A stretch of 63,975 bases of DNA from NCBI GenBank assembly GCA_902806415.1, contig CADCWN010000167.1, positions 1 to 63,975 of the forward strand, in the 5' to 3' direction. Under the pieces are notes generated by a model that saw only the letters and a program-made list of their open reading frames with translations, was not told the origin of the DNA and searched no databases. This DNA is from an uncultured Thermomicrobiales bacterium (GTDB lineage Bacteria > Chloroflexota > Chloroflexia > Thermomicrobiales > CADCWN01). Numbering within the stretch: the stretch's first letter is position 1; every line of letters starts with the position of its first letter. Shown piece after piece: positions 6,884-63,452 of this stretch. Position numbers and translations under genes: made by a program.

Positions 6884-7062
6884 GTCGAAGGTCGAAGGTC
6901 GAAGGTCGAAAGGAGAATGGGAAAGGGGAGCGGGGTGGTGGCGGCCAGAATTTATGCGCGAGGCGCTAACGGCTTTGGCTGGTAGCTGAAGCCACCAGCC
7001 GCTGCCTCACACAGATGCTCTGCCGTTTTCCCCCCTTCGACTTTCGACCTTCGACCTTCGAC
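6884..7062. repeat. heptamer-array inverted repeat: (GTCGAAG)x3+GTCGAAAGG at 6884..6913 versus (CCTTCGA)-type array at 7033..7062
   Basis: Base-by-base pairing gives about 30 bp with 1 mismatch and 1 wobble, with a 119-nt spacer. The right arm ends 1 nt before the stop codon (7064..7066) of the upstream minus-strand gene. The spacer contains a 7-bp sub-hairpin GGCTGGT/ACCAGCC. Confidence 0.85.
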
Positions 7063-7063
7063 C

Positions 7064-8110
7064 TCACAACGTGATTGTTTTGCCTTCCTCGATCGAGCGA
7101 TAGGCCGCGAGGATGACCTGGAGGACGCGCCGACCGTCGCGGTGGTCCTGGATCGGGCGGCGACCGGTGGCGATGCTGTCGTAGAAGTGGTGGATCGTCG
7201 CGTCGAAGGTCTGCTGGTTGCCGACGGGCTCGACCGGGTAGGAGCGGCGCGACGGCTCGGCGAAGCCGCGCGGCTTCTCGTAGAGGTCGTACCGATTCCC
7301 GTACACCTCACCGCGCTCGCCGATCGCGTGGAACTTCGCATCGTTGGCGGGGAAGGCGAACCCCTCGCCGGTGAAGATCTGGCCGATCGCGCCGTTGGCG
7401 AATTTGACCATGACCAGCGCGGTGTCCTCGCCGTCCATCTGCGCCACGTAGGTGCCGCCCATCGCCGTCACCTCGACCGGCTCCGCGCCTGCAAGGTGGA
7501 GGAGGATGTAGGTCGGGTGATAGCCCTTGTCGATCAGCACCCCGCCGCCCATCGTCGCGCGGTTCGCTCGCCAGCCGACCATCATCGTCCCCTCCGCTGG
7601 GCGACCGGGCACCGCCGAGGCCGGGTAACCGGTCGGGAACTCGTGCGAGCGCAGGATGAACGGCGTGCCGAGCGCGCCACGGTCGAGCAACTCCTTCGCG
7701 CCCGCGACCGCCGGGTAGAAGAGCTCGTTGTGGCCGCTCATGTAGACGATCCCGGCGCGATCGACCGCCTCGACGATCCTGTCCGCCTCCTCGATCGCGA
7801 TGCACATCGGCTTCTCGCAGAGGATATGCTTTCCCGCCGCCGTCGCCGCCAGGATCGCGTCGGCGTGGAGGTGGTGCGGCAGGCAGATGTCGACCGCGTC
7901 GATCTCGGCCTCACGGATCAGTTGGTGGTAATCGGTGTAGATCGTTGGGGCCGCGCCATCGGTGGCGAAGAGTCCCGCCGCCTCCGTCGCCGCCGCCTCG
8001 ACCACATCCGACACCGCCGTCACGATCGCCTGGCCCGCCAGCTTCTGCCAGCCGGGCGCGTGCCGCTTCCGCGCGATATTGCCGCTACCGATCAGCCCGA
8101 CCTTGAGCAT
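7064..8110 (-). CDS. Gfo/Idh/MocA family oxidoreductase
   Basis: ORF 7064..8110, 348 aa. Motifs MLKVGLIGSGNIARKRH and HILCEKPM. Confidence 0.85.
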   Translation of the reverse strand: MLKVGLIGSGNIARKRHAPGWQKLAGQAIVTAVSDVVEAAATEAAGLFATDGAAPTIYTDYHQLIREAEIDAVDICLPHHLHADAILAATAAGKHILCEKPMCIAIEEADRIVEAVDRAGIVYMSGHNELFYPAVAGAKELLDRGALGTPFILRSHEFPTGYPASAVPGRPAEGTMMVGWRANRATMGGGVLIDKGYHPTYILLHLAGAEPVEVTAMGGTYVAQMDGEDTALVMVKFANGAIGQIFTGEGFAFPANDAKFHAIGERGEVYGNRYDLYEKPRGFAEPSRRSYPVEPVGNQQTFDATIHHFYDSIATGRRPIQDHRDGRRVLQVILAAYRSIEEGKTITL

Positions 8111-11253: not shown

Positions 11254-13152
11254 TCAGTCGCCCGGTGTCGCGCCGCCCGTCGGGAGGCAGCGACCGCCCG
11301 GCGGCAGATCGCGCATGTAGCGATAGACGCCGAAATAGCTCGGCGAATCCCAGTAGAGTTCGCGCAGGCGCAGCCGCCCGCTGAGTCGGAGGAGCGGTGC
11401 CGTCTCGCGGATGGGGAAACACTCATCGCGCATCATGATCACGATCGGCTGCGCCGCGACGTTCGCGGGGTCGATCGGCTCGGCGATCCGCGCGATCTCG
11501 GTGCCGGGGTCGTCCACGATCCGGTGCGGCACGCCGTCGAGCGTCAGCAAGATGTCGAGGATGTCGAGCGCCGTGGCCCCGTCCTTCAAATCGATCCTGA
11601 CGAAACGCGGACCGAGCAGGACTGGGGCGTCGGTCCCGCGCACGCTGTTGACGAAGCGCACCGTCTCCAGAAAAGCCGCGTTATCCGGATCAAGTCGGCT
11701 CTCATGGGTGTAGTAGCGGCGCAGCGGGATAATCGGATAGAGGACGAGGATGAGGATGAGGAGCGCGGGAACAAGCGATAGCGCGGAACGCGGAACGCGG
11801 AACGCGGAATTTGTCTCCTGTAGAGATCTGGGTCTTCGCGTCAACCACGTTCTCATTCCGCGTTCCGCGTTCCGCGTTCCGACTTCCACCAGCGCCAGTG
11901 CGCCCGCCGCCACGGCGATCATCAGCGGCGGCAGCAGGAAGGCGATGTAGCGCCCGGTCAGCAGGTAGCGGTCGCCGTCAATCCCGTAGGCGTGGTTGAA
12001 GTAGGGCATCGTCAGCGCCGTGCAGATCGTCGCCAGCAGCGGCAGCGGCTGGCCGCGCCGCGCCAGCACGATCAGCCCGAGGATCGCCAGGGCGACGACG
12101 ATCAGCATATACGGCGAGGTGAGGTAGTGCAGCGCCCGCTCCGGGGTCCGAAACGGGTTGCTAATCATCCGTACCAGCGCGTAGAGCAGGCTTCGCAAGT
12201 TGTAGACATAGGTATTGGCGGTCGGATCGGCGACGAAGGCGTAGTCGCGGCCCCGCGCCCGCCGGAAGCCGACCATCCCGTTCAGCAAGTTGGCGATCAG
12301 GACCGGGCTGTAGGCGAGGATCGTCGCGAACGGGGCCGGATACAGCCAGGGCGAGCGCATGAGCCCCCAGGAACGCTCGCGCCAGAGCGCAAATGCGAGC
12401 GCTCCGACCAGGGCCGGGGCCAGCACGATCGTCCCAACATGCGTCTGGAGCAGCAACCCGAAGCAGAAGCCGCAGAGGATCAGCCAGCGCGCGGCAGGCG
12501 TGAACGCGCCGGGTGGGGCGGGTGACAGCGCTGCCTCGTCTGCCCCCCCGTCGATCAGGGCGATCTGCGGCCGTGGTGGGGGCAACGCCCGTACGGCGCG
12601 CAAGACCGTGTAGAAGCAGAGGGTGGCGTAGAACGGGGTGGTGGAGTTCTCCCAGGCGACGTGGCTATTGACGACAATATGCTGCGGCAGGGTGGCGAGG
12701 AAAGCGGCCCCAAGCGCGCCGGGTCGCCAGCCGCCCAGTTCCCTGCCGATCAGATAGGTCATCGCGACGGTCAGCGCACCGATGATGCAGACGAGGGCGC
12801 GCGGCAAGGTCATCGAAGGGCCGAAGATCCAGAGGCAGAGGGCGAGGAGGTAGTGGTGCAGCGGGCCGAAATATTGCACTTGCGCCGTGAGCGGGAATGC
12901 CTCGCCGTTGTAGATGCGGAGCGCCCAGCGGATCTCGCCGATCTCGTCGGTGAAGTGGGGCAGGCGCAGCAGGTACGGCCAGCGGGTCAGCATCGCGAGG
13001 CCGAAGAGCGCCAGGATCAGCAGCGCCTCGGCTTCGACCGGGCGAACTCGCGAGAGCAGCGCGCGGAACCCTCGTCGTCGCTGCCGCGCCGGTGTGCGCT
13101 CGACCGTGCCACCCCGCTGGCTCTTCGGTTCCGCCGTTGTCGCCCCGACCAA
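11254..13152 (-). CDS. GT39/ArnT-like dolichyl/undecaprenyl-phosphate-sugar glycosyltransferase (GT-C)
   Basis: ORF 11254..13152, 632 aa. N-terminal PHFTDEIGEI...YFGPLHHYLL segment, many TM helices and a soluble C-terminal domain. It contains an in-frame heptamer hairpin element (see repeat 11782..11883). Confidence 0.8.
   Translation of the reverse strand: MVGATTAEPKSQRGGTVERTPARQRRRGFRALLSRVRPVEAEALLILALFGLAMLTRWPYLLRLPHFTDEIGEIRWALRIYNGEAFPLTAQVQYFGPLHHYLLALCLWIFGPSMTLPRALVCIIGALTVAMTYLIGRELGGWRPGALGAAFLATLPQHIVVNSHVAWENSTTPFYATLCFYTVLRAVRALPPPRPQIALIDGGADEAALSPAPPGAFTPAARWLILCGFCFGLLLQTHVGTIVLAPALVGALAFALWRERSWGLMRSPWLYPAPFATILAYSPVLIANLLNGMVGFRRARGRDYAFVADPTANTYVYNLRSLLYALVRMISNPFRTPERALHYLTSPYMLIVVALAILGLIVLARRGQPLPLLATICTALTMPYFNHAYGIDGDRYLLTGRYIAFLLPPLMIAVAAGALALVEVGTRNAERGMRTWLTRRPRSLQETNSAFRVPRSALSLVPALLILILVLYPIIPLRRYYTHESRLDPDNAAFLETVRFVNSVRGTDAPVLLGPRFVRIDLKDGATALDILDILLTLDGVPHRIVDDPGTEIARIAEPIDPANVAAQPIVIMMRDECFPIRETAPLLRLSGRLRLRELYWDSPSYFGVYRYMRDLPPGGRCLPTGGATPGD
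11782..11883. repeat. heptamer-array inverted repeat inside a CDS: (CGCGGAA)x4 versus (TTCCGCG)x3+TTCCGAC
   Basis: 27-bp perfect stem (11784..11810 with 11855..11881) and a 44-nt loop. The span is 102 nt = 34 codons and is open in the frame of the host gene. Confidence 0.9.
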
Positions 13153-18644: not shown

Positions 18645-18666
18645 TGGCTGAGTGAAAGGGGGGCCG

Positions 18667-20586
18667 ATGACGATTCTGACGCCCGAGCTAATCGCCGATG
18701 GTCTGCTGCCGGGCGACCCGCAACTCGCGCCGGATGGCCGCGCCGTCGCCTATACCGTCGCGCCGGCCGGCCGGCGCGAGCGGGAGCCGCAGGGCGCGAT
18801 CTGGCTCGCCGCCACCGATCGCGCCACGCCGCCGCGTCGCCTCACCGCCGGTGTCGCCAACGACACGATACCGCGCTGGTCCCCCGACGGGCGGTCGCTC
18901 TACTTCCTCTCCGACCGGGCGAAACGGGGGGAGGCGCAGTTGTATCGCCTGCCCCTTGGCGGTGGCGAGGCCGAGGCGCTGACCGATTGGCGGGGCGGTC
19001 TCGCCGAGTTCGCCCCGCTAGCCGACGGGCGGACGGTGGTGCTCCTCGCCAAAGATCCGCCGACAGACGAGGACGAACGCCGCGAGCGCGAGGGCGACGA
19101 CGCCAGGGTGTGGGGCGAGCGCTGGCCGTCGCGGCGACTGCGCCTGCTCGACCTCGACTCGCGCGCCGTTCGCACGATCGACGCGCTCGGCGAATGCCAC
19201 GTCAGCGCTTTCGCTCCCGCGCCCGATGGCGCGCGGATCGCCGTCGCGACCTGGCCGAACCCCGATCTCGACAACGGGGCGTTCCCGACACCGCTCCACC
19301 TGGTGGATGTCGAGAGTGGCGCGGCCCACAAACTCTGCGACCTGCCGACCGGTGGCAACAACCTCACCTGGGACCGATCCGGCGAGTCTATCGCCTACAT
19401 CGCCCGCGCGGCGGAGGGCGGAGCCTCGGGGAATGGTCTGTTCCTGCTGCGCGTCGCCGAGGCCGCGCCGCGCCGCCTGGTTCCCGACCTCCCGGCCTGC
19501 CCACTCGCGCTCTGCCAAGGGGCCGGGAGCGGGATCCTGCTGACGGTCGCCACGGGCCTCGACACGACCCTCCAGCGTCTCGACCCGGAGACCGACGAAT
19601 TAACCGAACTCCTCCGCCTCCCCGGCGAATTGGCTTCCCCGGCCGTCAGCGCCGATGGGCGGTTGGTCGTGGCGCTCCGCAGCACGCCCGATAGCCCGCT
19701 CAATGTCTGGGCGGGGCCACCTGATGGCCCGCTCGCGCGGCTGACCGATCTGCGGCCCGAACTGCGCGCGGTCGCCTGGGGGTCGCAGGAACGCCTCGCC
19801 TGGCGGGCGGCCGACGGCCTCGACCTCGATGGCCTGCTCATCCTGCCGCCCGGCAAGGGGCGCACCGATGGGCCGTTCCCGCTGATTGTCGTCGTCCACG
19901 GTGGCCCGTACGGGCGTTTCGCCGATGACTTCCAACTCGGCAGCGGGCGACCATCCGGCCAGTGGCTCGCCGTCGGCGGGTACGCCGCCTTCCTGCCCAA
20001 CGCGCGCGGCGGTGTCGGGCATGGGGCCGCCTTCGCCGCGTCGGTCGCGGGGCGAGTTGGCCTGGAGGACTGGGGGGACATCGTCGCGGGCCTCGATCGG
20101 CTGGTTGAAGAGGGGGTCGCCGATCCCGCTCGGCTCGGGATCGGTGGGTGGAGTCAGGGTGGCTTCATGACCGCCTGGGCGGTCGGGCACACCGATCGGT
20201 TCCGTTGCGGCGTGATGGGCGCGGGCGTCAGCGATTGGGGGATGATGGTCGCCGAGAGCGACCTGCCGACCTTCGAGTCGGGGCTCGGCGGTAGCACCGG
20301 CTGGGAAGGCCCGGGACCGCACCCGCACGACCAGGTCAGCCCGATCTCCTTCGTCCACCGCGTCAAGACGCCGGTCCTGATCCTGCACGGGGAGTGCGAC
20401 GAGCGTGTCCCGGTCAGCCAGGCACAGTTCTTCGCGCGCGGCCTGCGCCACTACGGGGTGGAGCACGAGCTCGTCGTCTACCCGCGCGAGCCGCACGGCC
20501 TCCGCGAGCGGGCGCACCAAATCGACGCGCTGCGGCGTCTCCGCGCTTGGTTTGATCGCTGGCTCGGCGGGGGTCGTGAGTCGTGA
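18667..20586 (+). CDS. S9 family serine peptidase (prolyl oligopeptidase/acylaminoacyl-peptidase type)
   Basis: ORF 18652..20586, started at MTILTPE. N-terminal propeller-like repeats. The catalytic motifs are GIGGWSQGG (Ser), LHGECDERVP (Asp) and YPREPHG (His). Confidence 0.85.
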   Translation: MTILTPELIADGLLPGDPQLAPDGRAVAYTVAPAGRREREPQGAIWLAATDRATPPRRLTAGVANDTIPRWSPDGRSLYFLSDRAKRGEAQLYRLPLGGGEAEALTDWRGGLAEFAPLADGRTVVLLAKDPPTDEDERREREGDDARVWGERWPSRRLRLLDLDSRAVRTIDALGECHVSAFAPAPDGARIAVATWPNPDLDNGAFPTPLHLVDVESGAAHKLCDLPTGGNNLTWDRSGESIAYIARAAEGGASGNGLFLLRVAEAAPRRLVPDLPACPLALCQGAGSGILLTVATGLDTTLQRLDPETDELTELLRLPGELASPAVSADGRLVVALRSTPDSPLNVWAGPPDGPLARLTDLRPELRAVAWGSQERLAWRAADGLDLDGLLILPPGKGRTDGPFPLIVVVHGGPYGRFADDFQLGSGRPSGQWLAVGGYAAFLPNARGGVGHGAAFAASVAGRVGLEDWGDIVAGLDRLVEEGVADPARLGIGGWSQGGFMTAWAVGHTDRFRCGVMGAGVSDWGMMVAESDLPTFESGLGGSTGWEGPGPHPHDQVSPISFVHRVKTPVLILHGECDERVPVSQAQFFARGLRHYGVEHELVVYPREPHGLRERAHQIDALRRLRAWFDRWLGGGRES

Positions 20587-20593
20587 GTCGTGG
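20573..20593 (+). repeat. tandem heptamers (GTCGTGA)(GTCGTGA)(GTCGTGG) spanning the peptidase stop codon
   Basis: The last codons GGT CGT GAG TCG TGA (G R E S stop) are made of the array. No complementary arm was found nearby. Confidence 0.8.
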
Positions 20594-23416: not shown

Positions 23417-23517
23417 CAGGTCGAAGGCCCGAGGTCGAAGGTCGAAAATCGCTTACTTGCAGGCACAATGTTGGTAAGCGGTGACCTTCGACCTTCAGAC
23501 CTTCGACTCTCGACTTC
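23417..23517 (+). repeat. imperfect heptamer-array hairpin, (GGTCGAA)-type arm versus (CCTTCGA)-type arm, directly after the infA stop
   Basis: Arm 1 is about 23419..23456 and arm 2 about 23474..23514. The inner perfect stem is CGCTTAC/GTAAGCG (23450..23456 with 23474..23480). The outer TTCGACC units pair with bulges. Confidence 0.7.
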
Positions 23518-27991: not shown

Positions 27992-28083
27992 CGAGGGCGC
28001 ATGGGAGTCGAACCCACCGCCGCCGGACTACGACGGCCACCGGTTTTGAAGACCGGGGAGCCCACCGGGACCCCTCCGCCCCC
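27992..28083 (-). tRNA. selC: tRNA-Sec (selenocysteine tRNA, anticodon UCA)
   Basis: Folded by hand on the minus strand. Acceptor 5'-strand GGGGGCGG pairs with 3'-strand GCGCCCTC: 7 bp including one G-U, with the innermost 8th position a G-G mismatch. Then AG, a 6-bp D stem GGGUCC/GGGCUC with a CGGU loop, and anticodon arm CCGGU-CUUCAAA-ACCGG (U33, UCA, A37). A variable arm of about 21 nt follows, then T arm GUGGG-UUCGACU-CCCAU and discriminator G. No CCA is encoded. The 92-nt length, long extra arm and 6-bp D stem match the bacterial selC design (compare E. coli selC). Confidence 0.85.
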
Positions 28084-35389: not shown

Positions 35390-36163
35390 GTGAGGAAACA
35401 GGCGATCGTCGCGCTGCTGGGTCTGGGGCTGCTAAGCGCGTGTAGCACCACGACCTCGCCGACTGCGACGACGGAAGTGATCGCGACGACCGCTGCGGCG
35501 GTGGAGACGCCGACTGCGGCGGTGACGGCGACGGCGACCGCGCGAACGGCCCCGACAGCGGCAGCGTCGGCCACGCGCGGGGGCTCCGCCCCCTTACCGA
35601 CGGCGACGGTGACGGCGACAGCGAATCCGCGCGCGACCGCCAGCGCCGTCGGCGGCACGGTCACGCGCGTCGCCTCGCCGACCGGGGCGGGTACGCCGCT
35701 GCCAACGCTCGGGGCGGGCCAGGCGTATGTCGATCCGCAGGGCCGCTTCTCGTTCACGATCCCGAACAATTGGACGCAGGTGCAGGCGGCGGGCGCGGAA
35801 ATCGCCTATCAGTCGCCCGCGCCCGCCGGGACGATCCCCGCCACGGTCAATATCGTGCTGGAGAAGCTGCCCTCCGCGACGGTGACGCTCGACGAGTATG
35901 ATCAGGCGGGCGAGACCAATCTGAAGCAGCAGTTCCCCGATTACAAGCCGGTCAGCCTGACCAAGGTGACGATCGACGGCAAGCCCGCCTACAAGCGGGT
36001 CTACACCGCGACGATCGTCGGGCGGCTCCTCCAGCTGCAGCAGGTCTACCTGATCGAGCGCGATGTTGCCTACGTCATCTCCTGCGGCGCGCCGCAGGAG
36101 GCGTTCGCCGCCAACGCCACGATCTTCGACCAGATCTCCGGCACCTTCAAGATCGGCCAGTAG
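35390..36163 (+). CDS. lipoprotein with Thr/Ala-rich linker and PsbP/DUF1795-like C-terminal domain
   Basis: ORF 35390..36163. GTG start after GAGGAGGAAAG. The lipobox is LGLLSAC. The C-terminal domain begins FSFTIPNNWTQV. The domain assignment is from memory. Confidence 0.65.
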   Translation: MRKQAIVALLGLGLLSACSTTTSPTATTEVIATTAAAVETPTAAVTATATARTAPTAAASATRGGSAPLPTATVTATANPRATASAVGGTVTRVASPTGAGTPLPTLGAGQAYVDPQGRFSFTIPNNWTQVQAAGAEIAYQSPAPAGTIPATVNIVLEKLPSATVTLDEYDQAGETNLKQQFPDYKPVSLTKVTIDGKPAYKRVYTATIVGRLLQLQQVYLIERDVAYVISCGAPQEAFAANATIFDQISGTFKIGQ

Positions 36164-36280
36164 GAGTGGCGAGTGACGAGTGACGAGTGACGAGTGAGAA
36201 TAAGGGCCGGGAGTAGATTCGCACCTTGAGTAGCGCTCATCGTACTCTATTCGTTATTCGTCACTCGTCACTCGTCATTC
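36164..36280 (+). repeat. heptamer-array inverted repeat: (GAGTGGC)(GAGTGAC)x3(GAGTGAG) versus (GTTATTC)(GTCACTC)x2(GTCATTC)
   Basis: It starts at the nt after stop TAG (36161..36163). There are 28 contiguous pairs (36164..36191 with 36253..36280), including 4 G-U pairs that exist only in plus-strand RNA. A fifth unit pairs partially. It ends 10 nt before the next ATG (36291). Confidence 0.9.
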
Positions 36281-36290
36281 AACAGGGGGT

Positions 36291-36716
36291 ATGATGGAAG
36301 AGCAGAAGCCCGTCGAGCTTGTTCAGGGATTCGCGAAGGTTGATGAGGCTCCGGCGTTCGAGCCGCGGTGGTACAAGTTGGACGAGATCGTGCCGGTGGC
36401 GCTGCGCGAGGGGGTCAGCGCGCGCTTCGTGACCGGCGGGCGGATCATGTTCTCGTTCGTCCGCCTCGAATCGGGCGGGCGGGTGGAGTTGCATCAGCAC
36501 CCGCACGAGCAGTGCGGCTACATGCTCGAGGGCTCGATGGACCTGACGATCGGCGACGAGACGCGCGAGTTGCGCCCCGGCGACGCCTACACGATCCCCG
36601 GCGGCGTGCCGCACGCGGCGACCGGCGGCCTGGAAGGCGGCCTCGCGCTCGATGTTTTCTCGCCGGTGCGCGAGGATTACGCAGCTCTCGCAGAGAAGGC
36701 GGCACAGGGTCGGTAA
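36291..36716 (+). CDS. cupin domain protein
   Basis: ORF 36291..36716. The cupin motifs are GGRVELHQHPHEQCGYMLEG and PGDAYTIPGGVPHAA. Confidence 0.8.
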   Translation: MMEEQKPVELVQGFAKVDEAPAFEPRWYKLDEIVPVALREGVSARFVTGGRIMFSFVRLESGGRVELHQHPHEQCGYMLEGSMDLTIGDETRELRPGDAYTIPGGVPHAATGGLEGGLALDVFSPVREDYAALAEKAAQGR

Positions 36717-36731
36717 CGGTGCTGCTTGGTG

Positions 36732-36771
36732 GGGCGCGGCGGCGCGGGTGCTTACCCGCGCCGCCGCGCCC
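36732..36771 (+). terminator. 18-bp perfect G/C hairpin downstream of the cupin gene
   Basis: GGGCGCGGCGGCGCGGGT-GCTT-ACCCGCGCCGCCGCGCCC followed by TTCGTCATC (weak U tract). Confidence 0.6.
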
Positions 36772-36897
36772 TTCGTCATCGGCTCGGAATTTGCGACGGG
36801 ACGACGGGTGGTGATGGGAAGTCTTACTCTGTGAGAGGCGCCCCCACTACCCTTTCAAGGGTCTTCATGAAGCATATGCGAGTGTAGGAGGCAAACG

Positions 36898-37644: not shown

Positions 37645-37683
37645 TCGCATCGTGGTGATCGCGTCCCCGGTGCGGTCTCGTCG

Positions 37684-38835: not shown

Positions 38836-38836
38836 G

Positions 38837-39673: not shown

Positions 39674-39803
39674 GCTGACCCCGTAGCGCACCCTGCTCTC
39701 CCTTTCCCATCGCCACGAGCACCCGCCCACTATAGCGGGGGCGGGTGCTCGCCGCGCTGTACGACCCGCCCCCGCCAGTCTGTACCTGGCAGCGGATCCA
39801 ACA

Positions 39804-40049
39804 TTATCCGCGCGCCAGCGCCGCGCGCACGTCGGCGACCATCGGCTCGCGCCCCGCTTGCCTGTGCGAGACCAGCAGCGCGCCGCCCAGGTAGAGCGCG
39901 AAGTCGCCGTCAGGGGTCGGGATGAGCGCGAGGGCGTCGATCGCCTCGTCGAACTGCGCGAAGAGTCGCCGGGCGAGCGCCAGGGCGGCATCCTCGAAGC
40001 CGCCAGCGGGGTCATAGCGGATGGCGAGGTCGAGCGGGCTGGCCGTCAT
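39804..40049 (-). CDS. small Rdx (SelW/SelT/SelH)-fold-like protein lacking the CxxC/CxxU motif
   Basis: ORF 39804..40181, started at MTASPLDL (ATG 40049, an ATGA overlap with the Rieske stop). LAIRYDPAGGF...ALALIPTPDGDFALYLGGALLVSHRQAGREP aligns by eye with the Rdx pattern IEYCxxC...L.P...G.F.V..DG.L...K...G.FP. Asp and Gly sit at the two Cys positions. Confidence 0.45.
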   Translation of the reverse strand: MTASPLDLAIRYDPAGGFEDAALALARRLFAQFDEAIDALALIPTPDGDFALYLGGALLVSHRQAGREPMVADVRAALARG

Positions 40050-41230: not shown

Positions 41231-41243
41231 GGTTGGCTCCGGG

Positions 41244-41265
41244 GTCGAAGGTCGAAGGTCGAAAG
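41244..41265. repeat. single heptamer array (GTCGAAG)x2(GTCGAAA)G with no complementary arm nearby
   Basis: Lies 13 nt upstream of the hydrolase ATG (minus strand). Same unit as 6884 and 23419. Confidence 0.8.
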
Positions 41266-41528: not shown

Positions 41529-42713
41529 TCACGACTCGCGACTCCCTAGCCGCTCGCCGTACAAGGCGCGGGCGTTATCGGTCATGATGCGCTGGCGCAG
41601 CCGGTCGGGGATCGCGTCGAGCATCTCGGCGGGGTCGCCCGCCTCCCAGTGGGGGTAGTTGCCGGCGAACAGGAGACGGTGCTCGGCGTCGATCATGTCG
41701 AAGATCTGCGCGAAGTGGGCCGGATCGGGCGCGGCTTCCAGGGGGTAGGTCGTCGAATAGAAATGTTCGAGGATATAGGTGCTCGGCGGGCGCTTGACCC
41801 ACGGCGTCTCCGCGCGCTGCGCCTTCCAGTTCTTGTCGAAGCGCCACATGATGTGGGGCAGCCAGAAGACCCCGCCCTCGTGCAGGATCACCTTGAGGGT
41901 GGGGAACTTCTCGAAGACCCCCTCGGTGATCATGCTCATGATGTGGGCCATGTAGCTCTGCGGCAGTGAGCCGGACCACTCCAGGTAGGTGCTCGGGTGG
42001 CCGACCGCCGTGGCAGGCGGCGACATCCCCGCGCCCTCGCCGCCGAAGTGCAGGGCGAGGGGCAGCCCGTGCCGGGCGCACGCCTCGTAGATCGGGTGGT
42101 ACTGGCGACGACCGAGCGGCGACTCGGTCGCGCTGGGCAGCAGCACCTGCACCACGCCCGACTGATCGGCCAGCCGATCGATCTCCGCCACCGCCTGCAC
42201 CGGGTCCTGCGGGGCGACGAGGATCGAGGCGCGGTAGCAATCGAACGGGCGCACCCAGGTATCGAGGAGCCAGTCGTTGTGCGCCCGCGCGAGGGTCGCG
42301 GCCATGTCGATATTCGGCTGCACGCCGAGGCTGGTGAGATCGCTGGTGAGGATCGCCAGCTCGATCCCGCGGGGGTCGAGATACTGTTCCTTCACCCAGC
42401 GCGGATCACCCGCCGGCTGGCCGACGCGCCCATCCGGCCCGCCCGGCAGCGGCGCGACACCGTAGGCCGTGCCGACCGGCTTGAAGCCGTGCCGGGCCAT
42501 CGGCGGTCCGCCGGTGCGCGCCACGCGGTGCCGCAACCCCTCCGGCGCGTAGGCCGCGAGCGCCTGCCAGTCGGTGATCTGCGGGTGCAGATCCACATCG
42601 ATCGAAGTCGGAACGGGGAACGGGGAACGGGGAATGGCGCTCACAGGCTGTTCCTGCGCTACTGCCGTTCCGCTCCCCCGTTCCCCGTTCCCCATTCCGC
42701 GTTCCCCGTTCAT
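41529..42713 (-). CDS. amidohydrolase-2 family protein (ACMSD/LigW-type decarboxylase or hydrolase), paralog B
   Basis: ORF 41529..42947. The conserved core starts at SIDVDLHPQ (metal-binding D-x-H) and runs parallel to paralog A. In-frame starts are ATG 42713 (ATGA overlap with the paralog A stop), ATG 42695 and GTG 42644. All three lie inside the heptamer hairpin element. Confidence 0.8.
   Translation of the reverse strand: MNGERGMGNGERGSGTAVAQEQPVSAIPRSPFPVPTSIDVDLHPQITDWQALAAYAPEGLRHRVARTGGPPMARHGFKPVGTAYGVAPLPGGPDGRVGQPAGDPRWVKEQYLDPRGIELAILTSDLTSLGVQPNIDMAATLARAHNDWLLDTWVRPFDCYRASILVAPQDPVQAVAEIDRLADQSGVVQVLLPSATESPLGRRQYHPIYEACARHGLPLALHFGGEGAGMSPPATAVGHPSTYLEWSGSLPQSYMAHIMSMITEGVFEKFPTLKVILHEGGVFWLPHIMWRFDKNWKAQRAETPWVKRPPSTYILEHFYSTTYPLEAAPDPAHFAQIFDMIDAEHRLLFAGNYPHWEAGDPAEMLDAIPDRLRQRIMTDNARALYGERLGSRES
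42609..42711 (-). repeat. heptamer-array inverted repeat of GAACGGG/CCCCGTT units between the two amidohydrolase paralogs
   Basis: 42610..42632 pairs with 42676..42698 (23 bp). The only non-Watson-Crick position is a G-U in the minus (sense) RNA and a C-A clash in plus-strand RNA. The array begins within the stop codon of paralog A (TGAACGGGGAACGCGGAATGGGG...). Confidence 0.85.
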
Positions 42714-43843
42714 CGCGCGCTCGGCGCGAGCAGGCGCGGGCCGTACATCTCCAAGGCGTTCTCGACGAAGACGCGGCACTTGAGCTCCTTGGGGAAGTGG
42801 GCGAAGGCGAGGATTGGATTGTCGAAGTCCCAGTGCGGGTAGTCGCTGGCGAAGACGACCGTCTTCTCCGCGTGCAGCATCGCGAGGAGTTGGAGGAGTT
42901 GCTTGTGGTCGTCCGGCTCCTCGATCGGCTGCGTGCTGAAGTAGCAATTGCTGATGATGTACTCGCTCGGCGGGCGCTTCAGCCAGGGGGTCTCGGCCTT
43001 CAACTGCGGATAGAGGCGATCTAACCGGCCCATGACGTACGGTGCCCAGCAGACGCCCCCCTCGATGAAGGCGAACTTCAGCGTCGGGAACCGCTCGAAA
43101 ACCCCCTCGGTGACGAGGCTGACGCAGTGCGCCATCATCGTCTGCGAGTGGTCAGTGTGGAATTCGAGATAGGTGCTCGGGTAGCCGACGCCGGTCGGGG
43201 GGTTGGCGATCCCGGTCCCCTCAGCGCCGACGTGGATCGCGACCGGCAAGTCGTACTGCACCGCCGCCTCGTAGAGCGGCCAGTAGCAGACATTGCCGTA
43301 AGGGATCCGGGCGGCGGAGGCGAGCAGAACCTGCACCATGCCGGGATCATCGCCAAGGCGATGAATCTCGCGGGCGGCGGCGGCGGCATCCTGCGGGGTG
43401 ACGAGGATCGAGCCCTTGAAGCAGCCGTAAGGCCGGACCCACTTCTCCAGCGTCCAATCGTTGTAGGCGCTGGCGAGGGCGGCGAGGAAGCGCGCGTTGT
43501 GATCGACGCTGATCGCCCCGGTCAGCCCGCCGGTCAGCACGCCGAGGTCGATCCGGTACTTCACCATCAGCTGCCCGATCGTCCAGTCGGGGTCGCCGGC
43601 GCAGAGCCCGTCCTCCTCGCGCACGGCGTCGTCCATCCGCCCGGAGCCGGTGTTGGCGTAGTAGCGCGCGGCGAACTTCGGCCCCCCGTTGTCGAGATAG
43701 GGGTGCCACTCGCGCGCCAGGAACGGGCGCAATTCCTGGAGGCTCGGCAGATCGTTGTGGATATCGGTGTCGATCAGCCGCAGCGTGGCGGGATCGAGCG
43801 ATTCCGTCAGCGGTCGGGTGTGGAGATCGGTCGCGATCGCCAT
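42710..43843 (-). CDS. amidohydrolase-2 family protein, paralog A
   Basis: ORF 42710..43843, 377 aa. Motifs LIDTDIHND, AIHVGAEG, FIEGG and ASDYPHWD. Confidence 0.85.
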   Translation of the reverse strand: MAIATDLHTRPLTESLDPATLRLIDTDIHNDLPSLQELRPFLAREWHPYLDNGGPKFAARYYANTGSGRMDDAVREEDGLCAGDPDWTIGQLMVKYRIDLGVLTGGLTGAISVDHNARFLAALASAYNDWTLEKWVRPYGCFKGSILVTPQDAAAAAREIHRLGDDPGMVQVLLASAARIPYGNVCYWPLYEAAVQYDLPVAIHVGAEGTGIANPPTGVGYPSTYLEFHTDHSQTMMAHCVSLVTEGVFERFPTLKFAFIEGGVCWAPYVMGRLDRLYPQLKAETPWLKRPPSEYIISNCYFSTQPIEEPDDHKQLLQLLAMLHAEKTVVFASDYPHWDFDNPILAFAHFPKELKCRVFVENALEMYGPRLLAPSAR

Positions 43844-44542: not shown

Positions 44543-44643
44543 TTCAGTCGTGAGTCGTGAGAGGGTCTGCTCCAGCATGGTGCCTGCCTGCGGGCGCAGC
44601 ATCCTATCGAGCCACTCACGACTCACGACTCACGACTGACGAC
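44543..44643 (-). repeat. heptamer-array inverted repeat (AGTCGTG)x2 versus (CACGACT)x3-4 between fabI and the adenosyltransferase gene
   Basis: An 18-bp perfect stem in one register (44543..44560 with 44621..44638) and a 16-bp alternative one unit away. In the sense direction the array starts with TAGTCGT, which contains the fabI stop codon TAG (44643..44645). Confidence 0.85.
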
Positions 44644-45443
44644 TATTCCACCGGGACGCCCATCCCCATGACGTGATAGCCGCCGTCGAGATGGATCGTC
44701 TCGCCGGAGATATTGCGCCCGCCGGGACCGGCCAGGAAGGTGGCGAGATGGCCGATGTCCTCGATATCGACGTTGCGCCGGAGCGGGGCGTTGGTCCGCA
44801 CATACTCCTCCATCTTCGGGAAACCAGGGATGGAGCGCCCGGCCAGGGTGCGCACCGGCCCGGCGGAGATGGCGTTGACGCGGATATTGCGCGGGCCGAG
44901 ATCGAACGCGATGTAGGTGACGGCCGATTCCAATGCGGCCTTGGCGACCCCCATCAGGTTGTACTTCGGCACGACCCGCTCGCCGCCGAGGTAGGTCATC
45001 GTGATCACGCTGCCGCCGCCGCGCGCCTCCATCAGCGGCGCGGCGGCGCGGGCGAGGGCGACCAGGGAGTAGGCGCTGATGTCGAGCGCGGCGGCGAAGT
45101 CGGCGCGGGCGGTATCGACGAACAGGCCCGCGAACGATTCTTTTGGCGCGAAGGCGACCGAGTGGACCAGGGTGTTGAGCCCGCCGCCGAACGCCTCACC
45201 GACCGCGCTGTACACGGCGGCGATATCGTCGTCGCTCGTCACGTCGCAGGGGAGGACGAGGTAGGTCGGGTCGAGCGAGGCGGCGAGTTCGACCACCGTC
45301 TCCTTCAGCCGCTCGCCCTGATAGGTGAAGGCGAGGCGCATCCCCGCGTCGTGCAACGCCTGGGCGATCCCCCAGGCGATGCTGCGCTTGTTCGCCACGC
45401 CGAAGACCAGGCCGGTCTGCCCGTCGAGCTGTCCCATCCTCAC
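44643..45443 (-). CDS. fabI: enoyl-[acyl-carrier-protein] reductase (NADH)
   Basis: ORF 44643..45443. Motifs LVFGVANKRSIAWGIAQAL and YLGGERVVPKYNLMGVAKAALE (Y-x6-K). Confidence 0.9.
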   Translation of the reverse strand: MRMGQLDGQTGLVFGVANKRSIAWGIAQALHDAGMRLAFTYQGERLKETVVELAASLDPTYLVLPCDVTSDDDIAAVYSAVGEAFGGGLNTLVHSVAFAPKESFAGLFVDTARADFAAALDISAYSLVALARAAAPLMEARGGGSVITMTYLGGERVVPKYNLMGVAKAALESAVTYIAFDLGPRNIRVNAISAGPVRTLAGRSIPGFPKMEEYVRTNAPLRRNVDIEDIGHLATFLAGPGGRNISGETIHLDGGYHVMGMGVPVE

Positions 45444-47630: not shown

Positions 47631-47665
47631 GAGTGCCGAGTGAAAAGTGCCGAGTGCCAAGTACA
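47631..47665. repeat. tandem heptamers (GAGTGCC)(GAGTGAA)(AAGTGCC)(GAGTGCC)(AAGTACA)
   Basis: Lies 18 nt upstream of the LLM gene ATG (minus strand). It is not complementary to the arrays at 47832..47884. Confidence 0.75.
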
Positions 47666-47751
47666 TTAGGGTGGTGCTCCTGGTGGTGTGGGTGGGAGAC
47701 GGCCCTCACCCCCAGCTCGCTCCGGATGAACCGGACAATGTGCGCTCGCCA

Positions 47752-47779
47752 CCCCCTCTCCCGATTCCAGGAGAGGGGG
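47752..47779. repeat. CCCCCTCTCC/GGAGAGGGGG hairpin
   Basis: 10-bp perfect stem with an 8-nt loop. Same family as 10581..10610 and 18616..18644. Confidence 0.8.
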
Positions 47780-47831
47780 AACAAGCGCGGTGCTTATGAC
47801 CGAATGCGGCGACTGGGTTAGCGTTTTACGA

Positions 47832-47884
47832 ACTACGGACTACGGGTGCCTTCTCACGACTCACGACTCACGACTCACGACTCG
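47832..47884. repeat. two adjacent heptamer arrays: (ACTACGG)x2 at 47832..47845 and (CTCACGA)x4 at 47853..47880 (plus a partial fifth unit)
   Basis: In the sense (minus) direction the sequence reads TAG-CGAG-(TCGTGAG)x4, starting directly at the rhodanese stop codon (47885..47887). Confidence 0.85.
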
Positions 47885-54877: not shown

Positions 54878-55585
54878 GTGAACGCGGAACGCGGAGCGCG
54901 GAACGCGGAATTTGGGTTGGGAGAAGTCGGGACGACCGGGCTTCCCTCCGATGCCGTTCCGCGTTTCCTCGCCTTTGAGGGGCCGGAGGGCGGTGGTAAA
55001 TCGACCCAGGTACGCGCGGTGGCGGCGGCACTAGCGGCGGCGGGTGTGCCACACACGGTGACGCGCGAACCTGGTGGCACGGTGATCGGCGAGCAGATCC
55101 GCGCGGTTTTGCTCGGCATCGAGAACCGCGCGATGCTGCCGGAGACCGAAGTCCTGTTGCTACTGGCGGCGCGGGCGCAACACGTCGCCGAAGTGATCGC
55201 GCCCGCGCTGGCGCGGGGCGAGGTCGTCCTCTGCGACCGTTTCGCCGGCGCGACCTTCGCCTATCAGGGCTATGGTCGCGGCTTACCGCTGGCGGAGTTG
55301 CGCCGGTTGCAACGATTCGCGGCGGGCGATCTGGTCCCGGACCTGACGCTGCTCTTCGATCTCCCCGCCGAGATCGGCCTGGGTCGCCGTCACGCCGCAG
55401 GCGAGGTGAATCGCCTCGACGCGGCGGGACTGGCCTTCCATCGTGCCGTGCGCGACGGCTATCTCGCCCTCGCGCGGGAAGAGGCGGCGCGGTGGTGTAT
55501 CATCGATGCCAGCCGCCCGCTCGATGCGGTGACGACGGAAACACTGTCGATTGTCGGTGCGTGGCTGGCTGCAACGCGCGGGTAA
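54878..55585 (+). CDS. tmk: dTMP (thymidylate) kinase
   Basis: ORF 54878..55585. Motifs FLAFEGPEGGGKST, DRF and the lid region. Possible starts are GTG 54878 (directly after the upstream TAG) or TTG 54917. The 5-prime end is built from a heptamer element. Confidence 0.85.
   Translation: MNAERGARNAEFGLGEVGTTGLPSDAVPRFLAFEGPEGGGKSTQVRAVAAALAAAGVPHTVTREPGGTVIGEQIRAVLLGIENRAMLPETEVLLLLAARAQHVAEVIAPALARGEVVLCDRFAGATFAYQGYGRGLPLAELRRLQRFAAGDLVPDLTLLFDLPAEIGLGRRHAAGEVNRLDAAGLAFHRAVRDGYLALAREEAARWCIIDASRPLDAVTTETLSIVGAWLAATRG
54880..54968 (+). repeat. heptamer array (GAACGCG)x4 (54880..54910) with a shorter complementary arm CCGTTCCGCGTTTCC (54954..54968) inside the tmk 5-prime end
   Basis: Same unit as the intragenic element at 11782. 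The right arm encodes AVPRF, just before the P-loop strand. Confidence 0.8.
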
Positions 55586-63334: not shown

Positions 63335-63452
63335 GCAGTCGGCAGTCCGTGGTCCGTAGTCCGTAGAATCTGCTTGCGAGGCATCGCGCTGGCGGCAAAC
63401 GCTGGAGCAGCAGCGAGGCTCTACGGACTACGGACCACGGACTGCCGACTGC
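63335..63452 (+). repeat. perfect 33-bp hairpin built from GTCCGTA/GTCCGTG/GCAGTCG-type heptamers
   Basis: 63335..63367 pairs without a mismatch with 63420..63452 (checked base by base), with a 52-nt loop. It starts 4 nt after stop TAG (63329..63331) and ends 22 nt before the next ATG (63475). Confidence 0.95.

What the first reader, a model, noticed from the sequence alone, without database searches (positions are those of the whole stretch)
11782..11883. Heptamer hairpin element inserted in frame inside a GT39/ArnT-type glycosyltransferase gene
(CGCGGAA)x4 and (TTCCGCG)x3+TTCCGAC form a 27-bp perfect stem with a 44-nt loop, entirely inside ORF 11254..13152. The element is 102 nt = 34 codons and has no stop in the gene frame. 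It is read as GTRNAERGMRTWLTRRPRSLQETNSAFRVPRSA. That is a basic hydrophilic stretch between two hydrophobic helices (...AAGALALVEV and LSLVPALLILILVLY). The same unit builds the tmk 5-prime element (54880). This looks like an otherwise intergenic element that landed in a coding region and was tolerated as a loop. It is comparable in principle to the Rickettsia palindromic elements that sit in frame in genes. A 27-bp perfect helix inside an mRNA is also a plausible RNase III or ribosome-stalling site.
Basis: partly seen in the sequence, partly recalled or inferred. Interest (0 to 1): 0.7.

Follow-up and report, generated by a model that had tools for sequence, protein, structure and literature searches.

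The report
Translated heptamer-repeat hairpin inside a gene
A 102-base hairpin built from 7-base repeats sits in frame inside a membrane glycosyltransferase gene of a Thermomicrobiales bacterium and is read through as a protein loop; it belongs to a genome-wide family of such hairpins, it is old rather than freshly inserted, and relatives show the same thing has happened repeatedly in this enzyme family.

Summary
(CGCGGAA)x4 and (TTCCGCG)x3.7 form a perfect 27-bp stem with a 44-nt spacer. The element spans exactly 34 codons of an intact GT-C (ArnT/PMT-like) glycosyltransferase gene.

It belongs to a family of about 11 heptamer-array hairpins in the window. The other ten fill intergenic gaps. 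In the nine with a same-strand upstream gene, the element starts 0-3 nt after the stop codon.

It is not a recent, cleanly bounded insertion. All seven orthologues of one clade have the same 249-nt loop, against 204 nt in the sister clade, so the net gain is 15 aa. They carry heptamer-periodic arms with other or decayed units. The loop evolves at or above the synonymous rate, yet the window arms are perfect. Unit variants do not follow the gene tree. Both points indicate concerted, length-preserving homogenisation in place.

In-frame heptamer arrays recur independently in another loop of distant homologues. Four are inverted hairpin pairs and one is a single array. One hairpin uses the identical CGCGGAA unit. 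Some have substitutions exactly where a stop codon would fall in frame.

The peptide is Arg-rich and probably cytoplasmic. Any role of the mRNA structure is untested. I rate this a new variant of known kinds: heptamer-SSR inverted pairs and in-frame palindromic elements.

The parts
11856..11883 (-). 5' arm in gene orientation: GTCGGAA + (CGCGGAA)x3 on the mRNA strand, which reads (TTCCGCG)x3.7 + TTCCGAC on the + strand. Encodes V424-G432 (VGTRNAERG).
11810..11855 (-). Unique spacer of the hairpin: 44 nt between the perfect arms, about 50 % G+C, containing AGATCT. Encodes roughly M433-N448. It has only weak residual similarity to the spacers of the sister orthologues.
11782..11809 (-). 3' arm in gene orientation: (TTCCGCG)x4 on the mRNA strand, (CGCGGAA)x4 on the + strand. 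Encodes S449-A457 (SAFRVPRSA).
11254..13152 (-). Host gene: an intact 632-aa GT-C fold glycosyltransferase (PMT_2; ArnT-like). The element-encoded residues 424-457 lie between helix H399-439 and the last TM helix H455-471, ahead of the C-terminal soluble domain.
6884..7064 (.). Family member E1: (GGTCGAA)x4 ... 119-nt spacer ... (CTTCGAC)x4. It fills the gap between two GFO_IDH_MocA genes and starts at the TGA stop. The orthologous site in L013 and L015 carries (GTGCGGA)n hairpins instead.
20573..20592 (.). Family member E3: (GTCGTGA)x3. Its TGA serves as the stop codon of the peptidase S9 gene 18652..20586.
23418..23510 (.). Family member E4: an (AGGTCGA)/(GACCTTC) hairpin, 1 nt after the stop at 23416.
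36164..36280 (.). Family member E5: a (GAGTGAC)x5/(GTCACTC) hairpin, 0 nt after the stop at 36163. RNA fold z = -8.7.
41243..41263 (.). Family member E6: a lone (GGTCGAA)x3 array just upstream of the RBS of the gene that starts near 41231 on the minus strand.
42610..42711 (.). Family member E7: a (GGAACGG)/(CCGTTCC) hairpin with one CGCGGAA unit. It fills the gap between two amidohydrolase paralogues, from the stop at 42710-42712 to the ATG at about 42598.
44546..44644 (.). Family member E8: an (AGTCGTG)/(CACGACT) hairpin that fills the intergenic gap and overlaps the stop at 44643-44645.
47631..47883 (.). Family member E9, a composite: (GAGTCGT)x4.4 + (AGTCCGT)x2.7 ... long spacer ... (GGCACTC)n. 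It lies 1 nt from the stop at 47885.
54880..54968 (.). Family member E10: (GAACGCG)x4.4, the same CGCGGAA unit, 2 nt after the stop at 54877 and upstream of tmk. The partner arm is only partial (CCGTTCCGCGTTTCC).
63335..63452 (.). Family member E11: a perfect 33-bp stem of (CAGTCGG)(AGTCCGT)n arms with a 52-nt spacer, 3 nt after the stop at 63331 and upstream of cheW. RNA fold z = -11.7.

Best explanation
The feature is a genuine, translated member of a lineage-wide population of heptamer-repeat hairpins. Each has two inverted arrays of about four 7-nt units around a unique spacer, usually 40-60 nt, for roughly 100-120 nt in all. In this Thermomicrobiales genome they normally fill intercistronic gaps, starting at the upstream stop codon.

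Shown:
- A +45-nt expansion of the loop before the last transmembrane helix arose once, on the stem of one orthologue clade.
- Since then the length has stayed fixed (249 nt), while the sequence, spacer included, has turned over at or above the synonymous rate. The peptide itself is therefore not conserved.
- The arms keep heptamer periodicity in all members. They are perfect or near-perfect in some lineages and decayed in others.
- The unit variants (CGCGGAA, TGCGGAA, TCCCGCA and others) do not follow the gene tree.

Inferred:
- The arms are repeatedly re-homogenised in place by length-preserving processes. Candidates are conversion between misaligned units within an array, intrastrand template switching between the two arms (quasipalindrome correction), and possibly ectopic conversion from other copies with the same unit.
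- In a coding context only outcomes that stay in frame and free of stops survive.
- The copy is tolerated for two reasons. CGCGGAA/TTCCGCG has no stop codon in any frame. It also encodes Arg-rich hydrophilic heptads (RGTRNAE / FRVPRSA) that suit a probably cytoplasmic loop under the positive-inside rule.
- The most likely function for the protein is none. The 27-bp helix in the mRNA is a by-product whose effect on expression is unknown.
For: Family and location: searches give about 11 hairpins, 9 perfect period-7 arrays against 0 expected, nine elements starting 0-3 nt after stop codons, and only this one intragenic.

Antiquity and fixed length: orthologues are syntenic. Anchor-to-anchor length is 249 nt in the window, L001, L013, L014, L015 and L028, and 246 nt in L016. 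It is 204 nt in more than 10 short-loop orthologues. The long-loop clade has 100 % bootstrap support.

No peptide conservation: spacer identity is 0.45 for L001-L014 and 0.39-0.44 for the window against L015/L016. Four-fold-site identity is 0.75 and 0.58-0.63 respectively.

Hairpin state: kept in the window (z = -8.0), L013 (-5.6) and L016 (-5.1), and lost in L001, L014 and L015 (z about 0).

Concerted change: the first-position pair of the unit is C-G in every window unit, U-A in L013/L015/L016 and U-G in L001/L014/L028. The groupings these dialects would require get 0-1 % bootstrap support, against 99 % for (WIN,(L015,L016)).

Recurrence: in-frame arrays occur in a different loop of distant homologues. 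These are L030/L002 with AGTCGTG (z = -7.7 and -4.7), L044 with AGTCCGT (z = -12.3), L043 with perfect CGCGGAA/TTCCGCG (z = -6.7), L046 with GAAGTAC and L045 with ACTCAGC. That loop is again frozen at 153 nt in L002, L030 and L044 despite different units.

Translation: TGA->TGG and TAG->TGG substitutions fall exactly where a stop would be in frame, and CGCGGAA is stop-free in all frames. All length differences are multiples of 3.

Protein context: AF2 pLDDT 85, with the element on a helix extension, a linker and the start of the last TM helix. The fold is GT-C with ArnT as best hit.

Mechanism precedent: template switching can create and repair perfect stems (PMC8794818). Heptamer SSRs in convergent inverted pairs near the 3' ends of ORFs are documented in Xanthomonas (PMC4692102).
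Against: - The formal covariation test on the seven orthologues is not significant: 71.0 % of cells paired against 69.2 % in shuffles (64/500 as high), and covariation score 0.205 against 0.176 (59/500). Structure maintenance across the clade therefore rests on z-scores and the per-unit pattern.
- Purely local homogenisation does not explain why identical units, and even the same composite arm, recur at unrelated loci and in different genomes.
- It also does not explain why orthologous sites carry unrelated units.
- Exact length conservation is surprising for repeats that should be prone to slippage.
- The origin of the +45 nt, whether growth in situ from a seed or insertion with replacement, is not resolved.
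- The cytoplasmic location of the loop is inferred by analogy with ArnT/OST topology, not shown.
Confidence: 0.6

Rival explanations
1. Recent insertion of a mobile, otherwise intergenic palindromic element (MITE/RPE-like) into the coding region, tolerated because it happened to be in frame.
For: - The same unit occurs in an intergenic copy 43 kb away.
- The window arms are perfect and the spacer has lower G+C than the gene.
- Identical units and composite arms recur at unrelated loci and genomes, which needs some form of copying.
- Unit swaps at orthologous sites could be re-insertions.
Against: - The loop has the same length in seven orthologues at 73-75 % protein identity, all with heptamer-periodic arms.
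- The net difference from empty-type orthologues is 45 nt, not 102 nt, and is not bounded by the arms.
- No flanking direct repeat is visible.
- Spacers are unique to each copy, so there is no element consensus beyond the unit.
- There is weak but detectable spacer similarity to the sister clade (p about 0.006-0.05).
Confidence: 0.12
2. The hairpin is selected as an mRNA or DNA structure inside the gene. Possible roles are an RNase III processing site, a translational pause that helps insert the last transmembrane helix, or a protein-binding site. The encoded peptide would be incidental.
For: - The nucleic-acid structure is preserved with different units in three lineages while the peptide changes, for example GTRNAERG against GMRSAEWL.
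- In L044 the stop-avoiding substitution keeps pairing through a G.U wobble.
- In-frame hairpins of similar size recur in two loops that directly follow transmembrane helices.
- Canonical terminators are depleted, so the intergenic copies may act as 3'-end structures.
Against: - Three of the six distinct lineages have lost the structure with the gene intact (z about 0).
- Covariation is not significant.
- Selection for pairing would not require perfect unit periodicity.
- Short-loop orthologues and most homologues manage without any hairpin.
Confidence: 0.13
3. Contingency locus. The 7-nt arrays, whose unit length is not a multiple of 3, let the surface glycosyltransferase switch off and on by slipped-strand gain or loss of one unit. 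The recurrence in paralogous GT genes would reflect selection for phase-variable envelope glycosylation.
For: - Perfect arrays of 4 units inside the ORF.
- Alternative frames hit TGA at the start of the spacer, so a change of one unit would truncate the protein.
- The host is an envelope-modifying enzyme class in which phase variation is common (general knowledge).
- In-frame arrays recur in several members of the family.
Against: - Length is static, at 249 nt in seven orthologues and 153 nt in three, and no frameshifted allele was seen at the arrays.
- The arrays have decayed in half the lineages.
- The same arrays are mostly intergenic, so they are not specific to these genes.
- Only 4 units are present, which is a weak slippage substrate.
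Confidence: 0.08
4. Assembly or sequencing artefact: a foldback chimera, or a misassembled repeat that falsely joins two ORFs.
For: The contig is a metagenome assembly, and read support could not be inspected.
Against: The frame is intact, the length matches six independent orthologous assemblies, and the flanking protein sequence aligns colinearly. Similar hairpins appear in many independent projects.
Confidence: 0.02

Closest known systems
Intergenic heptamer SSRs in convergent inverted pairs: Xanthomonas GGGAATC repeats (Rehm et al. 2015, PMC4692102) and cyanobacterial STRR heptamer repeats (as cited there; STRR from my own knowledge)
   Same: - Tandem 7-nt units, typically about 4 copies.
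- Frequent arrangement as two arrays in convergent orientation that can form stem-loops.
- About 90 % intergenic and close to the 3' end of the upstream ORF.
- Extensive sequence and length variation between related genomes at the same intergenic sites.
- Function unknown.
   Different: - The phylum here is Chloroflexota (Thermomicrobiales).
- Several unit families coexist here (CGCGGAA, GGTCGAA, GAGTCGT, GAGTGAC, AGTCCGT and others), rather than one G-quadruplex-prone unit.
- The arrays abut stop codons (0-3 nt, against a mean of 28 nt in Xanthomonas).
- These hairpins are repeatedly found translated in frame inside a protein family, with stop-avoiding unit variants. I did not find that described.
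Rickettsia palindromic elements (RPEs) and other MITEs inserted in frame in ORFs (review PMC10969869)
   Same: A palindromic element of about 100-150 nt lies inside a functional gene, is read through in frame, and adds a surface or loop segment. It recurs in several genes or sites.
   Different: - RPEs are families with a conserved full-length consensus and a conserved encoded peptide. Here only the 7-nt unit is shared and the spacer is unique.
- There are no terminal inverted repeats plus target-site duplication.
- The expansion relative to empty orthologues is 15 aa and is not bounded by the arms.
- The arms evolve concertedly in place.
REP / REPIN elements (Bertels and Rainey 2011, PMC3116915; REP superfamilies, PMC3733652)
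   Same: Two inverted short arms separated by a spacer, about 100 nt in total, dispersed in intercistronic regions of same-strand gene pairs. In the intergenic copies the likely role is as mRNA 3'-end structures.
   Different: The arms are tandem heptamer arrays rather than a single 20-40-bp imperfect palindrome with a GTAG/CGTC tag. No RAYT transposase association was tested or seen. REPs are by definition extragenic.
Template-switch (quasipalindrome-correcting) mutation (Monttinen and Loytynoja 2022, PMC8794818)
   Same: It provides a one-step, length-preserving way to make or restore perfect complementarity between two arms. That fits perfect stems embedded in a fast-evolving region.
   Different: It is a mutational mechanism, not an element family. 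It does not by itself explain the 7-nt periodicity or the sharing of units between loci.

Membership tests
Heptamer SSR inverted pairs (Xanthomonas/STRR type) | Tandem repeats with a 7-nt unit, at least 2-3 copies, over-represented in the genome | tested here: met
   4.0 and 3.7 copies. There are 9 perfect arrays of at least 3 units for period 7 against 0.0 expected, and none for periods 6 or 8-12.
Heptamer SSR inverted pairs (Xanthomonas/STRR type) | Two arrays in convergent (inverted) orientation that can form a stem-loop | tested here: met
   A 27-bp perfect inverted repeat with z = -8.0. At least 7 other pairs occur in the window.
Heptamer SSR inverted pairs (Xanthomonas/STRR type) | Predominantly intergenic, near the 3' end of the upstream ORF | tested here: met
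   Met for the family: 10 of about 11 copies are intergenic, and nine start 0-3 nt after a stop. This particular copy is the intragenic exception. Xanthomonas also has 7-11 % intragenic copies.
Heptamer SSR inverted pairs (Xanthomonas/STRR type) | G-tract units able to form G-quadruplexes (specific to the Xanthomonas and Nostoc GGGAATC/GGGGAYT class) | tested here: not met
   CGCGGAA and most of the other units have no run of three or more G.
Rickettsia palindromic elements / in-frame MITEs | In-frame presence in an intact ORF, translated | tested here: met
   34 codons with no stop. Orthologues are colinear. Stop-avoiding variants occur in sibling cases.
Rickettsia palindromic elements / in-frame MITEs | A conserved full-length element consensus and conserved encoded peptide shared by the copies | tested here: not met
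   Spacers of the window copies are unrelated. Only the heptamer unit is shared.
Rickettsia palindromic elements / in-frame MITEs | The insertion is cleanly bounded relative to homologues that lack it; for MITEs, terminal inverted repeats plus a target-site duplication | tested here: not met
   The net difference is 45 nt, not 102 nt, and the gap does not match the arm boundaries. No flanking direct repeat is visible.
REP/REPIN | Inverted doublet of short arms with a spacer, dispersed and extragenic | tested here: inconclusive
   The architecture and intercistronic location match for the family. However, the arms are tandem arrays, and this copy is intragenic.
REP/REPIN | Association with a RAYT (Y1 transposase) gene | not tested
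   Only 64 kb of the genome is available, and no search for RAYT genes was made.
Phase-variable contingency locus | An SSR inside the ORF whose unit length is not divisible by 3 | tested here: met
   7-nt unit, 4 copies, in the ORF.
Phase-variable contingency locus | Unit-number polymorphism between cells, strains or close relatives, giving ON and OFF alleles | tested here: not met
   Among orthologues the length is static (249 nt x6, 246 x1; loop 1 at 153 nt x3) and no frameshifted allele occurs at the arrays. Read-level variation within the population was not testable.
GT-C glycosyltransferase (GT39 / ArnT / PMT-like), the host gene | PMT_2/PMT domain above the curated threshold, and a GT-C fold with a multi-TM N-terminal part and a C-terminal soluble domain | tested here: met
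   PF13231 scores 34.1 bits against a cutoff of 26.1. AF2 gives pLDDT 85 and pTM 0.86. Foldseek finds ArnT 5f15 at E = 3e-8, followed by the OST catalytic subunits STT3, AglB and PglB.

The most novel reading that the evidence does not exclude
The heptamer hairpins of Thermomicrobiales are not passive slippage products. They would be a distinct kind of self-propagating or actively written element. A small repertoire of units is shared across loci and genomes. Units are overwritten at fixed sites while the element length stays frozen. The elements are placed exactly at stop codons, and they repeatedly remodel loops of envelope glycosyltransferases. Together these would imply a dedicated trans-acting machinery (a recombinase, RAYT-like or template-directed enzyme, or a unit-specific binding protein), and a new route by which non-coding repeats generate protein loop diversity.
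Probability: 0.2. Interest if true: 0.8.

Novelty: new variant of a known kind. Interest (0 to 1): 0.6.

Why it matters
Heptamer repeats are the most over-represented long SSR class in many bacteria, and their origin and function remain open (PMC4692102, PMC4679880). This locus offers an unusually clean natural experiment. The same hairpin site can be followed through a dated gene tree, under the extra constraint of a reading frame.

It shows that the arms are homogenised in place, at fixed length, faster than neutral divergence erases them. It also shows that units can be replaced wholesale at an orthologous site. Finally, it shows that such repeats are a recurrent source of new, translated loop sequence in membrane proteins, much as RPEs are in Rickettsia but in a different phylum and by a different route.

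Practically, annotators should expect strong (-70 to -90 kcal/mol) hairpins and 7-aa periodic peptides such as RGTRNAE, FRVPRSA and TDYGLRT inside genuine genes of this lineage. They should not treat them as frameshifts or assembly errors.

Tried and rejected
1. Rfam at gathering thresholds over the whole window found only tRNA-Sec and nothing at the hairpins.

2. A formal covariation count on the seven-orthologue alignment in a common register was not significant. I therefore do not claim statistically supported compensatory evolution.

3. Spacer inversion by recombination between the arms was tested as an explanation for the hyper-divergent spacers. The best reverse-complement z was 3.1 among 42 comparisons, so it was rejected.

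4. DNA for P0023 is not on record. Its peptide suggests hairpins in both loops, but these remain inferred from `VVGSRQ…TTDYGLRT` and `RNGERG…RVPRSAL` only. The same kind of peptide-based prediction was verified at the DNA level for P0026, P0045, P0028 and P0050.

5. A metagenome scan for more orthologues yielded no closer relative of the window gene and no new structured copy at loop 2.

6. A canonical intrinsic-terminator role fails: no T-tracts follow the arms, and the scan found 2 sites against 7.5 expected.

7. Translational bypassing of the hairpin (as in T4 gene 60 or the mitochondrial byp elements, from my own knowledge) was rejected. The elements are always stop-free and a multiple of 3 in length, with substitutions that remove in-frame stops.

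8. The 42610 element looked like a second intragenic case, but it lies between two amidohydrolase genes in an over-extended ORF head.

9. The T. roseum genome paper does not mention such repeats. Three further full-text searches found no description of translated heptamer hairpins. Elhai et al. 2008 could not be retrieved.
Full report
**1. Observation**

The sequence is as described. On the + strand, (CGCGGAA)x4 occupies 11782-11809 and (TTCCGCG)x3.7, followed by TTCCGAC, occupies 11856-11883. The perfect inverted repeat is 11784-11810 / 11855-11881, 27 bp with 44 nt between the arms.

The element lies inside ORF 11254..13152 on the minus strand (632 aa). Its 102 nt are exactly codons 424-457, with no stop.

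As RNA the region folds to -71.9 kcal/mol, z = -8.0 against dinucleotide shuffles.

**2. The element belongs to a family**

Tandem-repeat and inverted-repeat scans show about eleven heptamer-array elements in the 64-kb window, most of them inverted pairs.

- Period 7 is uniquely over-represented. There are nine perfect arrays of at least three units against 0.0 in shuffles, and none for periods 6 or 8-12.
- The units fall into a few families, each used at several loci: GGTCGAA three times, GAGTCGT three times, CGCGGAA/CGGGGAA three times, AGTCCGT twice and GAGTGAC/GAGTGCC twice.
- The spacers, mostly 40-60 nt, are unique to each copy.
- After correcting over-extended ORF heads with Pfam domain starts and a missed gene, all other copies are intergenic.
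- In the nine with a same-strand upstream gene, the first arm starts 0-3 nt after the stop codon or overlaps it. In E3 the TGA inside the array is itself the stop codon.
- In the complete pairs, the second arm ends about 15-25 nt before the next start codon, leaving room for the RBS.
- Canonical intrinsic terminators are depleted, 2 found against 7.5 expected in 20 kb. Rfam has no family for the hairpins.

**3. The host gene**

- Pfam gives PMT_2 above threshold.
- Homologues are "glycosyltransferase family 39 / ArnT-family" proteins of Thermomicrobiales and Chloroflexia MAGs.
- An AlphaFold2 model (pLDDT 85, pTM 0.86) is a GT-C fold. Its best structural neighbour is ArnT (5f15), followed by the OST catalytic subunits.
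- Residues 424-457 map to the end of a long helix (H399-439), a lower-confidence linker (pLDDT about 71-77) and the start of the last TM helix (H455-471). The C-terminal soluble domain follows.
- In ArnT and OST that domain is periplasmic or luminal. By analogy, the Arg-rich loop would be cytoplasmic (inference).

**4. Is it an insertion bounded by the arms? No**

Orthology is secured by synteny (BON - GT - GNAT - DUF6311). I measured the DNA between two invariant anchors, TGRY and RRYY.

- It is 249 nt in the window and in L001, L013, L014, L015 and L028, and 246 nt in L016.
- It is 204 nt in every member of the sister clade, more than 10 sequences.
- With the loop masked, the long-loop clade has 100 % bootstrap support.

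So a +45-nt (15-aa) expansion happened once on its stem. In the protein alignment the gap falls in the spacer and right-arm part. The left-arm residues align with native residues of the short loop.

The element therefore predates the divergence of genes that are now 73-75 % identical in protein. Whether the +45 nt grew in situ or arrived as an insertion with replacement cannot be decided.

**5. What the orthologues show**

All long-loop orthologues keep heptamer periodicity in both arms, but with other or degenerate units.

- L013 has TGCGGA(A/G) / T(T/C)CCGCA.
- L016 has a perfect (TCCCGCA)x3 right arm.
- L001 has (CCGCGTG)x2.
- L014, L015 and L028 are degenerate.

The arm-to-arm hairpin remains far better than shuffles in the window (z = -8.0), L013 (-5.6) and L016 (-5.1). 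It is at background in L001, L014 and L015, and in the short-loop genes.

A formal pair count on a common register is not significant: 71.0 % of cells paired against 69.2 % in shuffles, with 64/500 shuffles as high. I therefore do not claim proven compensatory evolution.

What the data do show is concerted change.

- The first position of the unit pairs as C-G in every window unit, U-A in L013/L015/L016 and U-G in L001/L014/L028.
- The tree places the window with L015+L016 at 99 %. The dialect groupings get 0-1 %.
- Multi-unit changes therefore occurred independently in at least two lineages.

**6. Rate argument**

- Outside the loop, identity at four-fold sites is 0.75-0.78 for the close pairs and 0.58-0.70 for the window against the others.
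- Inside the hairpin the spacer is less conserved than that: 0.45 for L001-L014 and 0.39-0.44 for the window against L015/L016.
- The peptide is therefore not under purifying selection, and the region may be mutagenic.
- At such divergence the window lineage should have accumulated about ten or more substitutions in its 55 nt of arms. It has none that break the periodicity.
- The perfection is therefore recent.
- Selection for pairing alone would not demand identical units, so a mutational homogenising process is the better explanation.
- Length is frozen while sequence turns over, so that process must preserve length. The candidates are conversion between misaligned units, template switching between the arms (PMC8794818), and possibly ectopic conversion.
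- Spacer inversion was tested and rejected.

**7. Recurrence**

The same phenomenon occurs independently in another loop of this protein family, after the helix that ends near residue 188. I predicted it from 7-aa periodic peptides and verified it in DNA.

- L030 and L002 carry (A/G)GTCGTG ... CACGAC(T/C) (z = -7.7 and -4.7).
- L044, their sister, carries (AGTCCGT)x4 ... (CTACGGA)x4 at the identical site (z = -12.3).
- L043 is 46 % identical to the window protein. It carries perfect (GAACGCG)x4 ... (TTCCGCG)x3, the window's own unit, encoding ERGTRNAE ... FRVPRSAF (z = -6.7).
- L046 carries (GAAGTAC)x4 with a decayed partner arm.
- L045 carries a single (ACTCAGC)x4.5 array.

Loop 1 is exactly 153 nt in L002, L030 and L044 despite the different units, and their spacers share only their ends.

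The translated arms avoid stops. L030 reads TGG where the pure unit gives TGA. L044 reads TGG where it gives TAG, pairing with its partner through a G.U wobble. CGCGGAA/TTCCGCG has no stop in any frame. Because 7 and 3 are coprime, an array yields the same cyclic heptapeptide in every frame: RGTRNAE and FRVPRSA for this unit.

**8. Turnover at non-coding sites, and what remains unexplained**

- In the orthologous gap after a GFO_IDH_MocA gene, the window has (GGTCGAA)x4 ... (CTTCGAC)x4.
- L013 and L015 have (GTGCGGA)n ... (TTCCGCA)n at that site, the unit those genomes also use in their GT gene.
- L014 and L018 have nothing there.
- Across 335 kb of window and loci, 30 perfect arrays use only 17 canonical units, several of them shared between unrelated loci and genomes.
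- The composite arm (CAGTCGG)n(AGTCCGT)n occurs both in the window (E11) and in L043.

Local slippage from random seeds cannot produce this. Some copying between loci, or a trans-acting constraint on which units persist, is required. I could not identify it.

**9. Comparison with what is known**

- Heptamer SSRs are the most abundant long SSR class in many bacteria. Convergent inverted pairs close to the 3' ends of ORFs are documented for GGGAATC in Xanthomonas, where 7-11 % are intragenic (PMC4692102).
- Cyanobacterial and Beggiatoaceae heptamers are also known. The functions are speculative in every case.
- RPEs and some MITEs are known to sit in frame in genes (PMC10969869). They have full-length consensus sequences, which these elements lack.
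- REP/REPINs share the doublet architecture and the intercistronic habitat, but not the tandem-array arms.
- I found no description of such hairpins in Chloroflexota, or of translated heptamer hairpins.
- I therefore classify the finding as a new variant of known kinds, not a member of the RPE or REP families.

**10. Verdict**

- The element is real, translated, and related to the intergenic family.
- It is an old resident of the loop whose arms are kept, or made, perfect by concerted evolution. It is not a recent clean insertion.
- Its effect on the mRNA is untested.
- The interest lies less in this single copy than in what the comparison reveals. Heptamer hairpins colonise glycosyltransferase loops recurrently and avoid stop codons there. 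Their length stays frozen while units turn over, within a small shared repertoire whose cause is unknown.

Noticed in passing
window 27993-28083 (-): A tRNA-Sec gene (Rfam RF01852, 71.5 bits). This implies that the organism uses selenocysteine. No selenoprotein genes were looked for.
   Followed up: no
window 41337-41375 / 41426-41464: A perfect 39-bp inverted repeat with a 50-nt spacer. Each arm contains a nested palindrome (GGGCGTAT.GCAATACGCCC). It is a singleton in the window and is not heptamer-based. It shares an intergenic region with a lone (TTCGACC)x3 array next to the RBS of the gene that starts near 41231 on the minus strand.
   Followed up: partly
window 20573-20592: The stop codon of the peptidase S9 gene (18652..20586) is the TGA inside a (GTCGTGA)x3 heptamer array. 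The array therefore overlaps the 3' end of the gene and defines it.
   Followed up: partly
window 6884-7064 versus L013 11045-11145 and L015 10876-10960: At the orthologous intergenic site right after the TGA of a GFO_IDH_MocA gene, different genomes carry hairpins of unrelated units. The window has GGTCGAA, L013 and L015 have GTGCGGA, and L014 and L018 have none.
   Followed up: yes
window 47600-47915: A composite element. Two different arrays lie back to back, (GAGTCGT)x4.4 then (AGTCCGT)x2.7. They are followed by a spacer of about 165 nt containing a perfect 10-bp hairpin (CCCCCTCTCC...GGAGAGGGGG, about 47752-47779), and then a non-complementary (GGCACTC)n array.
   Followed up: no
window 36000-55900: Canonical intrinsic terminators (GC-rich stem plus T-tract) are depleted: 2 found against 7.5 +/- 3.3 expected from shuffles. 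Sigma-70-like promoters are at chance level.
   Followed up: no
window 41529-43843 (-): Two tandem Amidohydro_2 paralogues, about 41529..42598 and 42710..43843, are separated only by heptamer hairpin E7. My GC3-based gene call missed the upstream one, and the downstream ORF is over-extended through the hairpin.
   Followed up: partly
L038 1315-1521 (protein P0062); protein P0022: One GT homologue has an in-frame stop inside loop 2, so its protein was called truncated at 392 aa. Another (P0022, 671 aa) is frameshifted in its C-terminal domain. Both are possible pseudogenes or sequencing errors in this multi-copy family.
   Followed up: no
L043 5686-5738 and window 63335-63367: The same composite arm, (CAGTCGG)n followed by (AGTCCGT)n, occurs at unrelated loci in two different genomes. 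This suggests that arrays are copied between loci rather than generated locally.
   Followed up: partly
protein P0023 (no DNA available): The peptides `VVGSRQ…TTDYGLRT` (loop 1) and `RNGERG…RVPRSALSL` (loop 2) suggest that this single gene carries two in-frame heptamer hairpins. Its sisters P0024-P0026 have a short loop 2.
   Followed up: partly
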